Positions 3,314 through 55,978 of a stretch of 64,000 nt of DNA are shown here, in pieces. Position 1 is the stretch's first letter. Every line of letters starts with the position of its first letter. Source of the stretch: Dehalococcoidia bacterium (GTDB taxonomy: Bacteria; Chloroflexota; Dehalococcoidia; Plut-88900); assembly GCA_965207225.1 (NCBI GenBank), contig CBDBLV010000004.1, positions 256,001 through 320,000 of the forward strand, written 5' to 3'. Both the position numbers and the translations under genes were made by a program. Under the pieces are notes generated by a model. That model was not told the DNA's origin, did not search any database, and saw only the letters and a program-made list of their open reading frames with translations.

Positions 3314-3946
3314 ATGTACGTGCCAGATCTGTATGCAGTTACGGACAAAGCCCAAATCTACGACTTCATCCGGGATAACGGCTTCGGCATCCTCTTCTCA
3401 CACCAGGGCCCCGGGCCCACGGCCACCCACCTCCCTTTCGTACTGGTGGAAGGGGATGACGGGCAGGACACGATCATAGGGCACATGGCCCGGGTCAACG
3501 AGCAGTGGAAACATGCTGACGGCCAGGAGGTCCTGATAGTCTTCCACGGGCCTCATGCCTACGTCTCCCCAACCTGGTACAGGGAAGAAGACGTAGTACC
3601 GACCTGGAACTACGCCGTAGTCCACGTTTACGGGACTTTCGAGGCGGTACAGGGCAGGGCAGAGACCGTGGACATCGTCAGCAGGATAGTCGACTACTAC
3701 GAGTCTTTCGAGCCCCGGGCCTGGACAGCGGACTTCGACTCTCCTTACAACAGGAAGATGATCCGGGGCGTGACCGCTTTCAGGATCAAGATTGCTCGGG
3801 TGGAGGGGAAGTGGAAGATGGGACAGAACCGCCCCGCCTACCTCCGACGCCGCGCCCTGGAGGAATTACAGGCCCGACCCGGCGAAAACGAACAGGCTGT
3901 CGCCCAACTGATGGAGGAGACCTTAGACCGCAACGAGGGCGGTTAA
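3314..3946 (+). CDS. PaiB-family FMN-binding/heme split-barrel protein
   Basis: THLPF, GHMARVN, GPHAYVSP, VPTWNY, KMGQNR motifs. Confidence 0.9.
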   Translation: MYVPDLYAVTDKAQIYDFIRDNGFGILFSHQGPGPTATHLPFVLVEGDDGQDTIIGHMARVNEQWKHADGQEVLIVFHGPHAYVSPTWYREEDVVPTWNYAVVHVYGTFEAVQGRAETVDIVSRIVDYYESFEPRAWTADFDSPYNRKMIRGVTAFRIKIARVEGKWKMGQNRPAYLRRRALEELQARPGENEQAVAQLMEETLDRNEGG

Positions 3947-3966
3947 GGAAGCGGCCTGCTCTCAGC

Positions 3967-4662
3967 CTACGGGAACTGCTCCAGGGCCTTGCGGGCGGCT
4001 TCACGCTGGGCCTCCTTCTTTGAGGACCCCTCACCCTGGCCCAGGGTCTTGCCTGCGACAATCACTTTTGCGGCGAACATCGGGCTTCCGGACTCCGACA
4101 ACTGCTCCACGGTCTCGTAGCGCGGCAACGTCTGCAGGGTAGCCTGGGTGATTTCCTGGAGCTGTGACTTGTAATTGTAGTCGGATTTGTTGCTGCCGCC
4201 GCCCAGTGCTGCGTAGATCCTGGAATTCAGGCGCCCTATGATGAAGTCACGGGCCGCCTCCAGGCCAGCGTCCAACCAGATGGCCCCTATGACCGCTTCC
4301 AGGGCACCGGCCAGGATCCTCTCCTTATCCCTCCCGCCCGACTTCTCCTCCCCCTGACCCATCCGCAAGAACCTCCCAAGCCCCATCTCTTTCGCGACGG
4401 AAGCGAGGGCCCTGGAGGAGACCAACTGGGCGCGCAGGGCAGTCATCTCACCCTCGGTCAGGCGCGGCCATTGCGCGTACAGGTCGTCGGCAATAATGAA
4501 ACCAAGGACGGAATCGCCCAAAAATTCCAAGCGTTCGTTGGATTCCAGAGCGGATTTCGGATTTTCGTTAATACAGGAGCTGTGAGTAAGGGCGAGGGTC
4601 AACAGGACCTCGTCCGAGAACTCCCGCCCAATGAGCGCTTCGATACTTTCTTCCGGGGGCAT
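3967..4662 (-). CDS. rnc: Ribonuclease III
   Basis: ALTHSS, NERLEFLGDSVL signature, C-terminal dsRBD (YKSQLQE). Confidence 0.97.
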   Translation of the reverse strand: MPPEESIEALIGREFSDEVLLTLALTHSSCINENPKSALESNERLEFLGDSVLGFIIADDLYAQWPRLTEGEMTALRAQLVSSRALASVAKEMGLGRFLRMGQGEEKSGGRDKERILAGALEAVIGAIWLDAGLEAARDFIIGRLNSRIYAALGGGSNKSDYNYKSQLQEITQATLQTLPRYETVEQLSESGSPMFAAKVIVAGKTLGQGEGSSKKEAQREAARKALEQFP

Positions 4663-4680
4663 CTATGCGGGTACGCGGGT

Positions 4681-5301
4681 CTAGTCCCCGGGCGGGGTGG
4701 GGCGCTTGATCTCCTGCAGGTTGGGCACACCGTCGACCAGTCCGAGGACGTTGTCGAAGATGTCCCTGGCCTTGTCTGCCTCGGGCGGGGGCATCATCTT
4801 GACGAAGGCAGAGGCCCCCGACTCGGTGAACATCGTCGGCACTCCGAACACGCCGTAGTTGCTTGTGGCTTCTTCGTAGTCGGCGGCGATGGTCTTGAGG
4901 GCCTCGGGGTCGTTGATGTCTTCGAGGAACTTGTCGACGTCCAGCCCCGACTCCTTCGCAACCTCCGTCAGCACTTCCAGCTTGTCGATGGCCTTGCGCT
5001 GCATGTGCCGCGCGTTAAGGAGGGCGACGTGGAACTTGCCGAACTTCTCGGGGCCCTGCTTCTTGGCGGCTTCACCGGCCTTGAGGGCGAGGAGGCCTCT
5101 GCTGGGGAACGACTCGTCCTGCTCCCAGAGTTTCCAGTCGGGGCCTTCCTTGGAGTTGACTTGCTCCAGCGGGAAGTTCTTCCACGTTATGTTGAGGTCG
5201 TCTCCGTAGGCTTCCTTCACGTCTTGCAGCCAAACTGCTGCAACCCGGACGTAGGGTCAAAGGTAGTCGTAAAAGACCGTGAGATTAACTTTCTCGCTCA
5301 T
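4681..5301 (-). CDS. DsbA/FrnE-family thioredoxin-fold protein, probable selenoprotein (in-frame TGA at 5257-5259)
   Basis: ATG at 5301 in frame with ORF 4681..5220: MSEKVNLTVFYDYL(TGA)PYVRVAAVW; TGA occupies the catalytic Cys position of the family's DxxCPxC motif; cis-Pro loop GVPT; hairpin follows the TGA. Confidence 0.85.
5219..5252 (-). promoter_or_regulatory. Candidate bacterial SECIS element
   Basis: Minus strand after TGA: acgtc-cggg-ttgcagc-agtttg-gctgcaa-gacgt; G-containing apical loop about 20 nt from the UGA. Confidence 0.7.
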
Positions 5302-5370
5302 GTCGCCCCGCCTTTCAACTCAAACTGAGGCAATTCTATCACCCGACCCACCTATAATAAAGGCCGTAAC

Positions 5371-6615
5371 ATGGACTACCTCAAGCGAATAGAAGAGCAG
5401 ACCTGCCCCGAGCTCTGGGCTCTCATCATACGGCTGGGGGAGCTGGCCGAGGAACGCGGCGCCCATCTCTTCCTGGCGGGCGGTAGGGTCAGGGACCTGC
5501 TGCTAGGTCGGGAGAGCGCCGACTTTGACCTGGTGGTTGAAGGGGACGCCCTGGAGCTGGTAAAGGCCCTTGCCGGGGACCAGGGAGGCGAGGCGGTCGT
5601 CCACTCCAGGTTCGGCACTGCGACCTACCGGCGCGGAAACCTGGCACTCGACATCGCCACCTCCCGCACAGAGGAATACTCCCGACCCGGCGTCCTCCCC
5701 GATATCCGACCCGGGCCGATTGCTGAGGACCTGAAGCGTCGGGACTTCACCATCAATGCCATGGCAATCAGTCTCGGCCCTCCGGACGCGGGTGTACTGC
5801 TGGACCGGTTCGGGGGTCGGGAGGACCTGGAGAAGGGCCTGGTCAGGGTCCTGCACGAGGGAAGTTTCGTCGATGACCCGACTCGCACTATGCGCGCAAT
5901 ACGCTACGAGCAAAGGCTCGGATTCCGGATAGAACTAAACACCCTGGAACTCATTTCCCGAGACCTGCACCTTCTCCCATCCGTCGGGGTGGACCGGCTG
6001 AGGCGCGAAATCGAGCTATTTCTCAGCGAGCCCGAGCCTGAATTGCAGTTCGGTCGGGCGGAGGGGTTGGGAATAATCGACGCTATTCAGCGGGGGCTGG
6101 TCATTGAGCCCCGGATGCGGAGACTCTTCAAGGCTGCAAGAGACAACTGCGCGGAGGTCGACCCTACTATCTATCTCGCCCTGCTTCTATACGGTGTTCA
6201 AAAGGACAGGGCCGCAGATTTCCTGGAGCGGTACCGGTTCCCCAAAGAGTGGATTCAGACCGTAACAGGCTCCTTGGCCTTGAGGGATGCGGTAGCGGAA
6301 GTCGGGGTGGAGGGGCTCAGGCCGAGCGAGGTGTACGGGTCCTTCAAGGGTTACGGGAGGGCATCGATTCAGGCCTTCAGAATCGCCGCGAATGGGAAGG
6401 TGGCAAAGAGTCGGGCCGCCGAATATCTGGACCGGCTGGCCCATGTGCGGCCTGACCTGAGCGGCAAAGACCTGATGTCGTTGGGGGTACCCCGAGGCCC
6501 GCAGGTGGGGGGATTTCTGAAACGGTTGCTCGACGCCCGGCTCGATGGGTTAGTCGCGAGTCGGGATGAGGAAGCCACCCTGGTCAAGAATTGGCTGGAG
6601 GAAGCGGGAATCTAG
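5371..6615 (+). CDS. cca: tRNA nucleotidyltransferase (class II CCA/A-adding type)
   Basis: GGRVRDLLLG..DFD, RRDFTINAMA, DDPTR motifs; TATAAT at 5353-5358 implies a very short leader. Confidence 0.9.
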   Translation: MDYLKRIEEQTCPELWALIIRLGELAEERGAHLFLAGGRVRDLLLGRESADFDLVVEGDALELVKALAGDQGGEAVVHSRFGTATYRRGNLALDIATSRTEEYSRPGVLPDIRPGPIAEDLKRRDFTINAMAISLGPPDAGVLLDRFGGREDLEKGLVRVLHEGSFVDDPTRTMRAIRYEQRLGFRIELNTLELISRDLHLLPSVGVDRLRREIELFLSEPEPELQFGRAEGLGIIDAIQRGLVIEPRMRRLFKAARDNCAEVDPTIYLALLLYGVQKDRAADFLERYRFPKEWIQTVTGSLALRDAVAEVGVEGLRPSEVYGSFKGYGRASIQAFRIAANGKVAKSRAAEYLDRLAHVRPDLSGKDLMSLGVPRGPQVGGFLKRLLDARLDGLVASRDEEATLVKNWLEEAGI

Positions 6616-7460
6616 CTCGCGGACTTCTCCAGTCTCCGGCGGTGGAAGAGGTACTGCTGGGCGTAGCCGGCGTGACCCCCGAAGTAGTCCAGGGCCCAGG
6701 CCCGAATGGCGTCGTAGGACGGGTTGTGCCCAACCGAATACCACTCCTCGACGGCCCTCCTGACCCACCTGTCTATGGGAAACGAATCCAGCTTTTCAAG
6801 CGAGAACAGCAGCACGCAGTCGGCTACCTTGTCTCCCACCCCGTGCAGCGACATCAGATCCTTCTTGGCGTCGTCGTAGGTCAGCTCTCGGAGCCCGTCA
6901 AGGTCGTACACCCCTCGGCCGATGCGCTCTGCAGTACCGGCGAGGTATGGGGCCCGGAACCCCCAGCCAATCAGCCGCAGACCTGTCTCGCCGAGCTCCA
7001 TCACCCTCTCGGGGGTGGGGAATGAATAGCGGACGTGGCCGTCCATCTCCAGCGGGTCGCCCATCCTCCGGCATAGTGACTCGATGCATTCGCTGATCCT
7101 GGGGATGTTGGAGGAGATTGAACAGATGAAGGAAGCCAGGCACTCCCAGGGCTCTTGCCTGAGGAGTCGGAGGCCGTAGAACTGGGTTATCGCCCGACGC
7201 ATCCTCTCATCTTTGCCAATCCTGGCGTAGATGTCCGGCAGGTCATCATCCAGGCGCAGGTAGTAGATGAGCCGGTTGACTATCTCCTCTTCCGCTTGCG
7301 GGTAGCTTTCAAACTCGACGCCCAGCAACGTCTGTCGAATCTTCAGGATGTTGCCGTAGATGACCCCGTAGTACCAGTCGCCCTCCCGTCTCCAGCGGAA
7401 AGCCTGGCCACATTCCAGGGTGTGGGTGAGGTTGAAGGGCTGCTCGATGGGAATCAGCAT
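6612..7460 (-). CDS. ogg: 8-oxoguanine DNA glycosylase (Ogg family)
   Basis: TLECGQAFRW, RLLRQEPWE, HhH GVGDKVADC, FPIDRW, AGYAQQYLF. Confidence 0.92.
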   Translation of the reverse strand: MLIPIEQPFNLTHTLECGQAFRWRREGDWYYGVIYGNILKIRQTLLGVEFESYPQAEEEIVNRLIYYLRLDDDLPDIYARIGKDERMRRAITQFYGLRLLRQEPWECLASFICSISSNIPRISECIESLCRRMGDPLEMDGHVRYSFPTPERVMELGETGLRLIGWGFRAPYLAGTAERIGRGVYDLDGLRELTYDDAKKDLMSLHGVGDKVADCVLLFSLEKLDSFPIDRWVRRAVEEWYSVGHNPSYDAIRAWALDYFGGHAGYAQQYLFHRRRLEKSAS

Positions 7461-14684: not shown

Positions 14685-14703
14685 CCCGAGTCCCCCAAAA
14701 CCC

Positions 14704-16179
14704 ATGCAGATTTACAACACCCTCACCCGCTCCAAAGAGGAGTTCGTACCCCTCGGCGACCCCGTGAAGATGTACGTGTGTGGGATAACGCCCTACTCGG
14801 CGTCGCACGTCGGGCATGCGATGAGCTACATCACCTTCGACGTGGTGCGGCGGTACCTGGAGTGGCGCGGCTATAACGTCCTCCACATCCAGAACTTCAC
14901 AGACGTGGACGACAAAATCATCGACCGCTCCGCAACCCTCGGCTCCTCCCCCAAAGACCTGGCCGAGGGCCTGATCCAGGACTATTTCAACGAGATGGAC
15001 GCCCTGAACGTGACCCGGGCCCACATCTATCCCCGGGCCACGGAGGAAATAGCCAAAATTTTGGAAATGACCAGGGGGCTGGTGGAGAACGGCACTGCAT
15101 ACGCCGTGGACGGCGACGTTTACTACCGCATCAACAGCTATTCCGACTACGGAAAGCTCAGCCATCGCACGCTGGAAGGCATGATGTCCGGGGCCCGCAT
15201 AGAAGTCGACAACAGGAAAGAGCATCCCATGGACTTCGCCCTCTGGAAGGCCGCCAAGCCCGGCGAGCCATCCTGGGACAGCCCCTGGGGCCCGGGCCGA
15301 CCCGGCTGGCACATGGAATGCAGCGCTATGTCCCTCAGATACCTGGGCGAGAGATTTGACATCCACGGCGGGGGCCTGGACCTTATCTTCCCCCACCACG
15401 AAAACGAGATCGCCCAGACCGAGGCGTTCACCGGCGTCACCCCATCAGTCCAGTACTGGATGCACAACGGCCTCCTCCAGCTGGACGACGAAAAGATGAG
15501 CAAGTCCCTTGGCAACCTCGTCACGGTAAAGGAAGTCCTGGAAAACCATTCCGCCGACGCCCTGCGGCTGTTCTTCCTGGGCTCCCACTACCGCAGCCCT
15601 CTTTCCTTCAGCGAGCGCGGCCTAGAGGCCATGGAACGGGGCGCAGCCCGACTCCGCAACGCCGCCCAGCAGAATGGCAGTGCCGAGAATGACGGGGCCG
15701 CGGTCTCGACTGATGGGTTCCGGGAGCGCTTTATCGAGGCAATGGACGACGACTTTGGAACCGCACAGGCGGTGGCCGCGCTCTATGACCTCACCAGGGA
15801 GATCAACCGGGGCGCCGACTCCGGGTCCAGTGTATCTGGTGCCGTAGCATTGCTCAGAGAGTTGTCGGGGGTGCTGGGGCTCACGCTAGAGGAGCGAGGT
15901 GGGGAGTCAGGGGTGGATGTCGGGGGGCTGGCGAAACTTGTAGAGTCCGTGGCGGCTCAACTGGAAGCCGCAAGCCAGGTCGAGACGGCCTCAGAGCTGG
16001 CTGGGGTGTCTGCGGACGGAGCTAGCGCCGACGATTATGTCGGGGCACTGATTGCCGCCCGGCAGAAGCTTCGCAAAAGCCGGGAGTTCGCCCTGGCGGA
16101 CGGGATACGGGACTCGCTTAGCGAACGAGGTATAACCCTGAAGGACTCACCGATGGGCACCACCTGGGAACTGGCATAG
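14704..16179 (+). CDS. cysS: Cysteine--tRNA ligase
   Basis: YVCGIT, HVGH, GRPGWHMEC, FPHHENE, KMSKS. Confidence 0.98.
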   Translation: MQIYNTLTRSKEEFVPLGDPVKMYVCGITPYSASHVGHAMSYITFDVVRRYLEWRGYNVLHIQNFTDVDDKIIDRSATLGSSPKDLAEGLIQDYFNEMDALNVTRAHIYPRATEEIAKILEMTRGLVENGTAYAVDGDVYYRINSYSDYGKLSHRTLEGMMSGARIEVDNRKEHPMDFALWKAAKPGEPSWDSPWGPGRPGWHMECSAMSLRYLGERFDIHGGGLDLIFPHHENEIAQTEAFTGVTPSVQYWMHNGLLQLDDEKMSKSLGNLVTVKEVLENHSADALRLFFLGSHYRSPLSFSERGLEAMERGAARLRNAAQQNGSAENDGAAVSTDGFRERFIEAMDDDFGTAQAVAALYDLTREINRGADSGSSVSGAVALLRELSGVLGLTLEERGGESGVDVGGLAKLVESVAAQLEAASQVETASELAGVSADGASADDYVGALIAARQKLRKSREFALADGIRDSLSERGITLKDSPMGTTWELA

Positions 16180-54580: not shown

Positions 54581-55978
54581 CTATTCGGCTGCCTCTTCGG
54601 GCTCGGGGATGCCTGAGACCAGCACGCCGTGCCATTCCGAGACCTGTGTCTTTGCAGCGACATTGCCGTCCCTGTAGCCCCGGTCGGCAGACTGGCCGCC
54701 GGTCAGTGTGCTCTTGAGGAGGCCCTCTGCTACTTTGCAGGCGATGTAGGGCTTGCGAACGTCAAGGGGGTTGTTGTTGAGGTAGTCCTTCCACTTGCCG
54801 AGTTGGGTACCGGCCTGGATGAAGCCCTTGACCATGCCTACGTCGTTCAGGGCCCCGACGTCGGAGGCCCGACCCACCATCACCGCTCCGACTATCCGGT
54901 CACCGTCCCAGGACAACCGCCTGTAAACCGACGTGATGGAGCTTGAAACTACTGTCGTATCCGCATCGCTCTGCCAGTCCCCAAAGCTTGCCACTTGGAG
55001 CCCTACCGCGTCGACAACGTTGAACCCGATGCTTCCAGCGTAGCTCACATCCTGACCTGCCATGTTAGAACCTGCCACACGCCCGTGTTCGAAGGCGGTG
55101 GGCTGAATGGCATGGACAGCCTTGGAGTCGGAGTGGAGAACAGGACCCTCTGCCACGTCTCCGGCGGCGTAGATGCCGTCCACGTTGGTCGCCATTTTGC
55201 TGTCAACTAGTATGCCGTCACCGGTAGCTATGCCAGCACTCGAGGCGAAGTCCAGGTTGGGTCGGATGCCCGTGGCCATGACAACGGCATCGGCTTCCAT
55301 CTTGTCGCCGCTGCTCAGCTTAACGTCGCGATGGGAATCATGCTGGCCGATGCTGGAGACGCTTGTCCCGGTTATGCACCTGACTCCGTTCTTCTCTAGC
55401 CATGCCTCCACCACCTCTGCCGCTTCGGAGTTGATCATCCTCGGGAGGATGTGCTCCTCCAGTTCAACAAAGGTGATAGTGTGGCCCCCGCCGTGAAGTC
55501 CGTCGAGAATAATCAGACCAATAAACCCTGCACCGACAATTACTACCCTGCTCCCCGACGAGACGTTGTTCTTGAAGTTCCGGGCGTCCTCCAGGTTCCA
55601 CATATTCTGGACGCCCGCACCGTCGGATCCATCAATGGGCGGGGTGGTGGCGGAGGAACCGGTGGCTATCAGCAGGTTGTCATACCCTATGGAGGAGCCG
55701 TCACTCAGGGTTACGGCCTTGCCCGCCGCATCGATGCTTGTGACGTGGACCCCGTATTTTGTCTCCACGTTCAGGCCCGAGAGGTAGTCTTCATCGGCCG
55801 TTTTCACCGCCTGTTCACTTATGTCCCCTGCCAGGTAATAAGGCAAAGCCATCCGTGAATAGGGAGGCTCGTTGCCGATTAGGGTAATCGAAGAGTCAGA
55901 CTGGAGTCCCCTGATAGTCTCAATCGCCCGAATCCCTGCGGGACCCGTTCCGAGGACTAAGTGTCTCGTGTTCGCCAT
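54581..55978 (-). CDS. FAD/NAD(H)-dependent oxidoreductase (AorC-like)
   Basis: GTGPAG, ATGS, GAGFIG, YAAGDVAE. Confidence 0.88.
   Translation of the reverse strand: MANTRHLVLGTGPAGIRAIETIRGLQSDSSITLIGNEPPYSRMALPYYLAGDISEQAVKTADEDYLSGLNVETKYGVHVTSIDAAGKAVTLSDGSSIGYDNLLIATGSSATTPPIDGSDGAGVQNMWNLEDARNFKNNVSSGSRVVIVGAGFIGLIILDGLHGGGHTITFVELEEHILPRMINSEAAEVVEAWLEKNGVRCITGTSVSSIGQHDSHRDVKLSSGDKMEADAVVMATGIRPNLDFASSAGIATGDGILVDSKMATNVDGIYAAGDVAEGPVLHSDSKAVHAIQPTAFEHGRVAGSNMAGQDVSYAGSIGFNVVDAVGLQVASFGDWQSDADTTVVSSSITSVYRRLSWDGDRIVGAVMVGRASDVGALNDVGMVKGFIQAGTQLGKWKDYLNNNPLDVRKPYIACKVAEGLLKSTLTGGQSADRGYRDGNVAAKTQVSEWHGVLVSGIPEPEEAAE

What the first reader, a model, noticed from the sequence alone, without database searches (positions are those of the whole stretch)
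4681..5301. Hidden cysteine-free selenoprotein: DsbA/FrnE fold with a U-P-Y-V active site
Seen: the called ORF (4681..5220) lacks the thioredoxin active site. Extending it in frame to ATG 5301 gives MSEKVNLTVFYDYL-TGA-PYVRVAAVW, with TGA (5257-5259) exactly where the family's first catalytic Cys sits. The 206-aa product has no Cys at all, so there is no resolving thiol. The gene lies 18 bp upstream of rnc. Established: DsbA-like selenoproteins exist, typically UxxC, and gene callers truncate them. Inference: a mono-selenol oxidoreductase recycled by an external thiol or partner, co-transcribed with RNase III.
Basis: partly seen in the sequence, partly recalled or inferred. Interest (0 to 1): 0.85.

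Follow-up and report, generated by a model that had tools for sequence, protein, structure and literature searches.

The report
Single-selenocysteine DsbA-like protein gene
This is a real selenoprotein gene that gene callers cut short: a cytoplasmic DsbA-like protein whose only redox residue is one selenocysteine, from a family predicted in 2008 whose function has never been tested.

Summary
Gene 4681..5301 (-) carries an in-frame TGA at 5257-5259, and the 206-aa read-through product has no cysteine.

It is a genuine Sec gene:
- The genome has tRNA-Sec, selA, selB and selD, and uses TGA as an ordinary stop.
- The TGA is kept in 23 of 45 homologous loci down to about 40% identity. The other 22 have TGC or TGT at the same codon. 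Sec and Cys switched at least 3-4 times on the tree.
- The 14 codons before the TGA evolve as coding sequence.
- A hairpin that fits the published bacterial SECIS model follows the TGA. It shows paired changes in Sec forms only.

The whole family is single-Cys/Sec by design (C/U-P-[YFW]-[VA]). Only 1 of the 45 loci has CxxC, and no database homolog does. The nearest solved structure is Deinococcus DR2335 (TM 0.86), a single-Cys protein with no functional data.

The family is already in print as "DsbA 3, UxxV" (GOS selenoproteome, 2008), so this is a new member of a known kind.

The mechanism is inferred: a mono-selenol reductase recycled by an outside thiol or thioredoxin. rnc lies downstream only within the window's class. 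A CoaE fusion in Thermomicrobiales hints at coenzyme A.

The parts
4681..5301 (-). Full selenoprotein gene: 206 codons plus stop TAG. DsbA-like thioredoxin-fold protein with one Sec and no Cys.
   Evidence: Pfam DSBA matches residues 7-161. AF2 model has pLDDT 93.2.
5299..5301 (-). Start codon ATG, kept in all 9 family-f1 relatives compared.
   Evidence: the ATG is aligned in L024-L035. Ungapped identity of the 60 nt further upstream is 27-58% in seven of the eight comparisons (95% in the closest genome).
5257..5259 (-). Sec codon TGA (residue 15), at the N-cap of helix 1 where Trx-fold proteins hold the nucleophilic Cys.
   Evidence: 23 TGA and 22 TGC/TGT among 45 loci; helix 16-35.
5219..5252 (-). 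SECIS-like element. Lower helix 5252-5248 pairs with 5223-5219. Upper 7-bp helix 5243-5237 pairs with 5230-5224. Apical loop AGUUUG lies at 5236-5231 and starts 20 nt after the UGA.
   Evidence: upper hairpin -9.5 kcal/mol; paired changes in Sec forms; no such pairing in Cys forms; published bSECIS rules.
4681..5220 (-). Truncated ORF as gene callers report it (179 aa from GTG 5220). It lacks strand 1 and the active site.
   Evidence: The closest database homologs are 162-197 aa and begin after the TGA.
4663..4680 (-). 18-nt spacer before rnc, with no terminator-like site.
3967..4662 (-). rnc (RNase III), directly downstream on the same strand.
   Evidence: Ribonucleas_3_3, Ribonuclease_3, dsrm. 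Synteny.
5371..6615 (+). Divergent upstream gene of the PolyA_pol head domain family (CCA-adding enzyme or poly(A) polymerase type).
   Evidence: Kept beside the gene in most same-class loci.

Best explanation
Gene 4681..5301 (-) encodes a cytoplasmic DsbA-like thioredoxin-fold selenoprotein. UGA-15 is decoded as selenocysteine by the genome's own SelA/SelB/SelD/tRNA-Sec system, directed by a hairpin that begins 14 nt after the UGA.

Shown: the protein belongs to a family that carries a single redox residue by design, C or U in C/U-P-[YFW]-[VA] with no partner Cys. The window's copy is the Sec form.

Inferred (about 0.5): the lone selenol at the N-cap of helix 1 attacks a disulfide or S-thiolated substrate and forms a Se-S intermediate. 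That intermediate cannot be resolved within the protein. It is released by an outside reductant, either a low-molecular-weight thiol or a thioredoxin-type protein. This is the monothiol mechanism known for Cys-type GSTs, monothiol glutaredoxins and the DsbA-Mrx1 protein NCgl2478. The outside reductant is unknown. The gene may be co-transcribed with rnc, but this is not shown.
For: Sec machinery in the genome:
- tRNA-Sec scores 66.4 bits and ARAGORN reads anticodon TCA.
- selA scores 556 bits, selB 359 bits, and selD 387 bits with its own in-frame TGA.
- TGA is a normal stop: it ends 653 of 1992 long frames.

Sec/Cys column:
- Of 45 homologous loci, 23 have TGA and 22 have TGC or TGT at the same codon.
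- A tree of 40 of them needs 4 Sec/Cys changes, and at least 3 are forced by well-supported branches.

Coding constraint before the TGA: 40 synonymous against 13 non-synonymous codon changes over 8 comparisons, which are not independent. Differences sit mostly at third codon positions.

SECIS:
- The window's hairpin meets all four published bSECIS constraints.
- In 19 distinct Sec forms, 88.7% of upper-helix cells pair, 4 of 7 pairs change on both sides, and 0 of 500 shuffles reach the covariation score.
- In 21 Cys forms the same columns pair in 46.9% of upper-helix cells (47.6% over both helices), and 221 of 500 shuffles do as well.

Not an assembly slip: a contig from another study covers 5171-5363 with 0 differences.

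Single-Cys design:
- 88 of 120 database homologs show the motif and none has CxxC.
- 26 of 40 genome-derived forms have no other Cys.

Fold: the model has pLDDT 93.2. The best solved match is the single-Cys DR2335, with TM 0.86.

Cytoplasmic location: strand 1 starts at residue 5, so there is no leader.

Monothiol precedent in the nearest characterised branch: the abstract of PMC8280269.
Against: No selenium incorporation, transcript or activity has been measured.

The 73-nt region after the UGA is not unusually stable as a whole (z -0.23), and no Rfam family matches it.

The hairpin lies over conserved A-A-V-W-L codons. Its loop conservation is therefore confounded with coding, and the Sec forms are closer kin to each other than the Cys forms are.

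No pathway for glutathione, mycothiol, bacillithiol or ergothioneine was found in this 92.3%-complete genome, and no CoA-disulfide reductase scored over its cut-off. The proposed outside thiol therefore has no identified source. A thioredoxin reductase-like gene exists, but it scores below the curated cut-off (282 against 343 bits).
Confidence: 0.8

Rival explanations
1. The family works with coenzyme A. It would be a CoA-directed mono-thiol/selenol enzyme, for example one that removes CoA from S-CoAlated proteins or handles CoA disulfide or persulfide.
For: Three of the best 150 representatives (P0122, P0124, P0154) are fusions of dephospho-CoA kinase (PF01121) with this domain. coaE lies directly upstream on the same strand in 21 of 27 named loci, mostly Thermomicrobiales, and is fused in one of them, L083. 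The window's genome shows none of four other thiol pathways. This reading is a special case of the best explanation, not a contradiction of it.
Against: The 27 loci were fetched with the fusion protein itself, so 21 of 27 is biased. In the unbiased phylum sample coaE is adjacent in 0 of 45 loci, and in the window's genome coaE lies on another contig. No CoA-disulfide reductase scored over its cut-off. CoaE makes CoA, and a fusion to it need not mean that CoA is the thiol partner.
Confidence: 0.15
2. The selenol acts directly on an oxidant or small molecule, as a peroxidase, a selenenic-acid cycle, or a transferase or isomerase like kappa-class GST and HCCA isomerase. It would not be a protein disulfide or de-thiolation reductase.
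For: The family has invariant residues of its own near the fold's substrate face: W40, F43, L45, E46, Q47, W56, W59, H99 and a C-terminal E-x-K-R-P. These suggest a defined small ligand. Kappa GST and HCCA isomerase share the fold (TM 0.63-0.66).
Against: Those enzymes are far more distant than DR2335 and Rv2466c. gshB was not found. Any selenenic-acid cycle would still need an outside reductant.
Confidence: 0.15
3. The TGA is a true stop. The gene would be broken, or only the 179-aa product from GTG 5220 is made, or the TGA is read as another residue.
For: Gene callers report the short ORF. Three database homologs print W at this site.
Against: The short product would lack strand 1 and the active site. 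The TGA is kept in 23 loci, with coding constraint upstream and Cys in the other 22. The hairpin is specific to TGA forms. The full Sec machinery is present, and TGA is an ordinary stop in this genome.
Confidence: 0.03
4. The protein serves RNA metabolism together with RNase III and the CCA-type enzyme. It might control them by redox, or act on thiolated or CoA-capped RNA.
For: rnc lies directly downstream in 19 of 22 same-class loci, for both Sec and Cys forms. The divergent PolyA_pol-family gene is kept in most of them. The spacer is 18 nt with no terminator-like site.
Against: rnc is adjacent in 0 of 23 other-class loci and 0 of 27 named loci. The kept block is wider (ogg, cca, dsb, rnc), which looks like plain synteny of housekeeping genes. 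No contact between the proteins was tested.
Confidence: 0.05

Closest known systems
'DsbA 3' selenoprotein family, motif UxxV (Zhang & Gladyshev 2008, GOS selenoproteome, PMC2398784)
   Same: PF01323 domain and a UxxV motif. The paper lists 5 Sec reads and 72 Cys homologs. The reads printed in its supplement share, by eye, the F-D-F-R-U-P-F-V start, the W-K-x-F-S-L-x-Q-x-N block and the G-V-P-T...F-L-K-M-x-x-P-P-E block with the forms found here. L059 and L068 also read D-F-R-U-P-F-V.
   Different: That record is a table row and raw reads only. It gives no SECIS covariation, structure, context or mechanism. I ran no alignment against the printed reads.
DR2335 of Deinococcus radiodurans (PDB 7DK9; C24S mutant 7DKA)
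   Same: DsbA-like fold with one conserved Cys in C-P-Y-A at the same place. Profile E 5e-28 over the full length. TM 0.86, rmsd 2.0-2.5 A, 25% identity. Predicted cytoplasmic.
   Different: It is a Cys form only, from a distant branch with insertions. Passages of two reviews say that no functional or expression data exist (PMC8945050, PMC6300522).
Rv2466c / NCgl2478 (DsbA-mycoredoxin-1 cluster)
   Same: Cytoplasmic DsbA-like reductases. Full-length profile match of about 4e-8. TM 0.73 to 4zil. Pfam PF22234 scores 27.0 bits, exactly at its cut-off of 27. NCgl2478 removes mycothiol from mixed disulfides by a monothiol route (abstract of PMC8280269).
   Different: Those proteins have CPWC or CPFC with a resolving Cys and use mycothiol. 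Here there is no second Cys, and no mshC scored over its cut-off.
DsbA-like selenoproteins with UxxC ('DsbA 1', FrnE-like; 'form 1' of the 2026 review)
   Same: Same Pfam domain, with Sec at the first active-site position. The window's genome holds one of these as well, with U-P-W-C on contig C5.
   Different: They keep the resolving Cys and are only about 30% identical to this protein over residues 56-157.
Cys-type glutathione transferases (Omega, Lambda, Xi/GHR)
   Same: Thioredoxin-fold enzymes with a single catalytic Cys in C-P-[FYW]-A-like motifs. They remove glutathione from substrates through a mixed disulfide that a second thiol molecule resolves (passages of PMC4138524). This is a working analogy for the mechanism.
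   Different: They have a different domain architecture and are not homologous beyond the fold. gshB was not found in this genome.

Membership tests
Bacterial selenoprotein gene | In-frame TGA aligned with Cys in homologs | tested here: met
   Of 45 loci, 23 have TGA and 22 have TGC/TGT at one codon. 85 of the 88 database homologs that show the motif have Cys there, and 3 print W.
Bacterial selenoprotein gene | Conservation on both sides of the TGA | tested here: met
   The Pfam match starts at residue 7. Upstream codons change 40 times synonymously against 13 non-synonymously. Matches span query residues 1-206 across the stop.
Bacterial selenoprotein gene | bSECIS: loop of 3-9 nt, stem of 4-16 bp, G in the first two loop positions, 16-37 nt from the UGA, MFE <= -7.5 kcal/mol | tested here: met
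   Loop 6 nt (AGUUUG), stem 7 bp, spacing 20 nt, -9.5 kcal/mol. The rules are quoted from PMC13188914 section 5. 15 of 21 Sec forms and 2 of 14 Cys forms pass a strict no-bulge version. Covariation was counted.
Bacterial selenoprotein gene | selA, selB, selC and selD in the genome | tested here: met
   All four score over their curated cut-offs.
Bacterial selenoprotein gene | Selenium shown in the protein | not testable with these tools
   Needs 75Se labelling or mass spectrometry.
'DsbA 3' (UxxV) family of the GOS selenoproteome | PF01323 domain with a UxxV motif | tested here: met
   22 of 23 Sec forms read U-x-x-V and 1 reads U-x-x-A.
'DsbA 3' (UxxV) family of the GOS selenoproteome | Sequence likeness to the printed GOS reads | tested here: inconclusive
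   Clear by eye from the supplement passage. No alignment was run, because the printed reads were not put into a tool.
Classical DsbA / FrnE dithiol oxidoreductase | CxxC (or UxxC) active site | tested here: not met
   U-P-Y-V here. None of the 88 database motifs has CxxC, and 1 of 45 loci does (L071, C-P-V-C).
Classical DsbA / FrnE dithiol oxidoreductase | Thioredoxin fold with an inserted helical domain, and the loop before strand 3 with Pro | tested here: met
   Model and DsbA-family matches. G-V-P-T is present, with P155 nearly invariant and T156 invariant. The cis state of the Pro was not checked.
Classical DsbA / FrnE dithiol oxidoreductase | Export signal (periplasmic DsbA) | tested here: not met
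   Strand 1 begins at residue 5, which leaves no room for a leader. No signal-peptide program was run.
DR2335-like single-Cys DsbA-like proteins | One conserved Cys at the helix-1 N-cap, the same fold, and full-length homology | tested here: met
   E 5e-28; TM 0.86.
Rv2466c / DsbA-Mrx1 cluster | CPWC/CPFC motif and dependence on mycothiol | tested here: not met
   No second Cys. The mshC model scores 322.8 bits, under its cut-off of 485.1. Pfam PF22234 scores only at its cut-off.
Kappa-class GST / HCCA isomerase | Closest fold and sequence relatives, and use of glutathione | tested here: not met
   Weak profile hits only (3fz5 1.3e-5, 2imd 1.5e-3). TM 0.63-0.66. gshB not found.

The most novel reading that the evidence does not exclude
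The single-Cys/Sec DsbA-like family is a coenzyme-A-directed redox enzyme, for example a de-CoAlase. The window's protein would then be its selenium-boosted form, in an organism that shows none of the glutathione, mycothiol, bacillithiol or ergothioneine pathways. The basis is the recurrent fusion and adjacency with dephospho-CoA kinase in Thermomicrobiales. The neighbours rnc and the CCA-type enzyme leave open an even bolder link to thiol-bearing (dephospho-CoA-capped) RNA.
Probability: 0.12. Interest if true: 0.65.

Novelty: new member of a known kind. Interest (0 to 1): 0.35.

Why it matters
It corrects a systematic annotation error. The closest database entries are all truncated at the TGA.

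It also shows that this DsbA branch runs on one redox residue only. That makes its members natural traps for their own substrates, because the Se-S or S-S intermediate cannot be resolved within the protein.

The family has a solved structure (DR2335) but no known function. The Sec/Cys switching, the family-specific invariant residues and the CoaE fusion give concrete handles for assigning one. As a discovery it is modest, since the UxxV DsbA selenoprotein family was listed in 2008.

Tried and rejected
- Rfam scan of 4600-5400 at E <= 10: only four chance-level hits and no SECIS family.
- Whole-region fold energy after the UGA: not different from shuffles (z -0.23). The signal lies in the local hairpin and its covariation, not in bulk stability.
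- NCBIfam: no model over its cut-off. The best was NF041057 at 26.3 bits against a cut-off of 190.
- Earlier findings of this scan: nothing to show.
- Promoter scan of 3800-5500: 0 sites. Of the 4 terminator-like sites, none lies in the spacer.
- Reads: all runs are contigs, so they cannot show transcript ends or levels.
  - An RNA-library contig covers 5118-5310. It has 3 differences whose places were not listed, and DNA can be present in such libraries, so I do not count it as proof of expression.
  - The X13 contig spans the stretch with 47 differences. None is listed at 5257-5259, but 49 rows of that table were not shown.
- Low-molecular-weight thiol pathways and CoA-disulfide reductase: nothing over a cut-off. 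This leaves the reductant open. The genome is 92.3% complete, so absence is not shown.
- coaE next to the gene in the phylum sample: 0 of 45 loci.
- Search for a paper on 7DK9: one unrelated methods preprint. A search for DR2335 found two reviews.
- The 2026 review's 'DsbA-like form 2, DxxUP' fits D-Y-L-U-P. Its label 'crotonase/enoyl-CoA hydratase family' and its cited source (PMC5029168, one passage seen) did not let me decide whether it is the same family.
- I did not run a complex prediction, because the report claims no binding.

Full report
**Observation.** On the - strand the frame opens with ATG at 5301 and runs through an in-frame TGA at 5259-5257 to TAG at 4683-4681.
- Read with TGA=U it gives 206 residues with U at position 15, in the context Y-D-Y-L-U-P-Y-V, and no Cys.
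- The mechanical ORF list shows only the 179-aa piece from GTG 5220.
- Pfam DSBA (PF01323) matches residues 7-161 at E 2.6e-18, so the domain starts before the stop.
- rnc (3967-4662, -) follows after 18 nt. A PolyA_pol-family gene (5371-6615, +) lies divergently upstream.

**Is the TGA decoded as Sec? Machinery and conservation.**
- The window's genome (4.03 Mb, 5 contigs, 92.3% complete) holds the full machinery. tRNA-Sec scores 66.4 bits and ARAGORN reads anticodon TCA. selA scores 556 bits and selB 359 bits. selD scores 387 bits and has an in-frame TGA of its own.
- TGA is otherwise a normal stop. It ends 653 of 1992 stop-to-stop frames of 350 codons or more.
- In 61 related genomes, the 18 best matches, down to 40% identity, all span the query across exactly one TGA.
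- Together with a 401-genome sample of the phylum, I parsed 45 loci. 23 have TGA and 22 have TGC or TGT at the same codon. One of the 23, L065, comes from an unpublished genome (G201).
- A maximum-likelihood tree of 40 forms (19 Sec, 21 Cys) left out L065, three exact duplicates and the misparsed L075. It needs 4 Sec/Cys changes, and at least 3 are forced by well-supported branches.
- The 14 codons before the TGA change mostly at third positions. There are 40 synonymous against 13 non-synonymous codon changes over 8 comparisons with the window's copy. These comparisons are not independent.
- The 60 nt further upstream keep only 27-58% ungapped identity in all but the nearest genome.

**Is the TGA decoded as Sec? 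The hairpin and the reads.**
- Fourteen nt after the UGA lies a 7-bp hairpin, with the 5' arm at 5243-5237, the 6-nt loop AGUUUG and the 3' arm at 5230-5224. A 5-bp lower helix encloses it.
- It meets the four constraints of the bacterial SECIS model as quoted in section 5 of PMC13188914 (read in full). The loop has 3-9 nt, the stem 4-16 bp, a G sits in the first two loop positions, the loop starts 20 nt after the UGA, and the energy is -9.5 kcal/mol.
- Across 19 distinct Sec forms, 88.7% of upper-helix cells pair and 4 of 7 pairs change on both sides. The covariation score is 0.282 against a shuffled mean of 0.189, reached by 0 of 500 shuffles. Sliding the partner by 1-3 columns gives 31-53% paired.
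- In 21 Cys forms the same columns pair in 46.9% of upper-helix cells (47.6% over both helices). 221 of 500 shuffles do as well.
- Two caveats apply. The structure was read from one of the Sec sequences. The Sec forms are also closer kin to each other than the Cys forms are.
- No Rfam family matches, and the 73-nt region as a whole is not unusually stable.
- The TGA is not an assembly slip. A contig from a different study covers 5171-5363 with no difference.

**What the protein is.**
- Among the 120 listed database homologs, 88 show the active-site motif in their first 45 residues. The counts are CPYV 57, CPFA 9, CPYA 8, CPFV 6, CPWA 3, CPNA 2, WPYV 2 and WPFV 1.
- None of these has CxxC. The other 32 mostly begin after the site, which means they are truncated Sec forms.
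- Among the 23 Sec loci, 22 read U-x-x-V and one reads U-x-x-A. One Cys locus (L071) reads C-P-V-C.
- 26 of 40 forms have no other Cys, and no further Cys is conserved.
- A 50-sequence alignment has invariant D12, C/U15, P16, W24, W40, F43, L45, E46, Q47, W56, W59, S67, A78, Q82, F87, H99, T156, E197 and K199. Several of these are peculiar to this family.
- The AlphaFold model is confident (pLDDT 93.2, pTM 0.89). Strand 1 spans residues 5-11 and helix 1 spans residues 16-35. Residue 15 therefore sits at the helix N-cap, and there is no room for an export signal.
- The best solved match is 7DK9, the DsbA-like protein DR2335 of Deinococcus radiodurans, with TM 0.86, rmsd 2.0-2.5 A and 25% identity. 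7DKA is its C24S mutant. The profile E-value is 5e-28 over the full length.
- Next come Rv2466c (TM up to 0.73) and YjbH. FrnE, kappa GST and HCCA isomerase are farther.
- Passages of two reviews describe DR_2335 as a DsbA-like protein with a single conserved Cys. The 2022 one adds that no functional or expression data have been reported (PMC8945050, PMC6300522).
- No NCBIfam model covers the family.
- In a library of 1.84 billion representatives, 143 score E <= 1e-30.

**What is in print.**
- Table 2 of the GOS selenoproteome paper lists 'DsbA 3, pfam01323, UxxV' with 5 Sec sequences in 3 samples and 72 Cys homologs (PMC2398784; passages).
- Its supplement prints reads under '#DsbA 3 UXXV'. 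By eye these are the same family (passage). I ran no alignment on them.
- Earlier papers list DsbA-like selenoproteins as UxxC (PMC1088965, PMC1794560; passages).
- The 2026 review lists 'form 1 UxxC' and 'form 2 DxxUP' (PMC13188914). The second motif fits D-Y-L-U-P, but I could not confirm that it is the same family.
- The family is therefore a known predicted selenoprotein. I found no functional study of it.

**Context.**
- rnc follows directly on the same strand in 19 of 45 loci. That is 19 of 22 from the window's class, including the two Cys forms L041 and L072, and 0 of 23 from other classes. It is also 0 of 27 named loci.
- The kept block is wider (ogg, cca-type gene, this gene, rnc), so plain synteny explains it as well as a shared function does.
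- No terminator-like site lies in the spacer. Co-transcription is plausible but not shown.
- Three of the best 150 representatives are fusions of dephospho-CoA kinase with this domain.
- With one such fusion as the query, 27 named loci came back, mostly Thermomicrobiales and Sphaerobacterales. 21 have coaE directly upstream, and it is fused in one. 8 of the 27 are Sec forms.
- That sample is biased by its query. In the phylum sample coaE is adjacent in 0 of 45 loci, and in the window's genome it lies on contig C5.

**Mechanism.** With one selenol and no partner Cys, the protein cannot run the dithiol cycle of DsbA or FrnE.
- The best-supported reading is a monothiol-type cycle. The selenolate attacks a disulfide or S-thiolated substrate, and the Se-S intermediate is cleared by an outside thiol or a thioredoxin-type protein.
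- Two precedents support this. One is the Cys-type GSTs with C-P-x-A-like motifs (PMC4138524, passages). The other is NCgl2478 of the Rv2466c branch (PMC8280269, abstract).
- The reductant is open. mshC, bshC, gshB and egtD were not found over their cut-offs, and no CoA-disulfide reductase was either. A thioredoxin reductase-like gene scores 282 bits, under its cut-off of 343.
- The CoaE fusion points to CoA as a candidate.
- All of this is inference. Identity as a selenoprotein gene is shown as far as sequence can show it.

**Verdict.** The protein is a new member of a family already listed as a selenoprotein in 2008, so the interest is moderate to low. This work adds the following:
- the family-wide single-residue design;
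- the contrast between Sec and Cys forms in the SECIS hairpin;
- the structural tie to DR2335;
- the class-limited rnc context;
- the CoaE fusion as a lead to function.

Noticed in passing
Own genome, contig C5 about 846373-847000 (+), outside the window: A second DsbA-like selenoprotein gene of the classic type, with U-P-W-C at residue 15 of its read-through frame. The genome therefore holds both the UxxC form and the UxxV form.
   Followed up: partly
Own genome, C5:649975-650898 (-), outside the window: selD itself carries one in-frame TGA (387 bits over the full model). It serves as a built-in control that Sec decoding is in use.
   Followed up: no
P0122, P0124, P0154; loci L083-L103: Dephospho-CoA kinase is fused to the single-Cys DsbA-like gene or lies directly upstream of it in Thermomicrobiales and Sphaerobacterales MAGs. 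Six of these coaE-linked loci are Sec forms (L087, L090, L094, L095, L099, L101).
   Followed up: partly
P0084, P0093, P0096 (database homologs): These three print W-P-[YF]-V at the active site. They are probably TGA read as Trp by a gene caller using another code, but their DNA was not seen.
   Followed up: no
L071:174-224: One Cys form reads C-P-V-C, the only CxxC in the 45 loci. Its closest kin, L067 and L069, read C-P-F-A and C-P-Y-A. This looks like a regained partner Cys.
   Followed up: no
window 14689-15879 (+): This gene matches the mycothiol ligase MshC model at 322.8 bits, under the cut-off of 485. It is most likely cysteinyl-tRNA synthetase.
   Followed up: no
window 54971-55960 (-): A pyridine nucleotide-disulfide oxidoreductase. 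It is the genome's best match to the CoA-disulfide reductase model, at 173 bits against a cut-off of 578.8.
   Followed up: no
window 3900-5500, run X13: A 24.6-kb contig from a run labelled sponge metagenome spans the whole stretch with 47 differences in 1601 bases. A close relative therefore occurs in that kind of sample.
   Followed up: no
window 3314-3946 (+) and 6612-7460 (-): The flanking genes (paiB-like and ogg-like by my own labels; no family search was run on them) keep their places beside the gene and its neighbours across the genus. The ogg-like gene is also kept in two distant families (L041, L072).
   Followed up: partly
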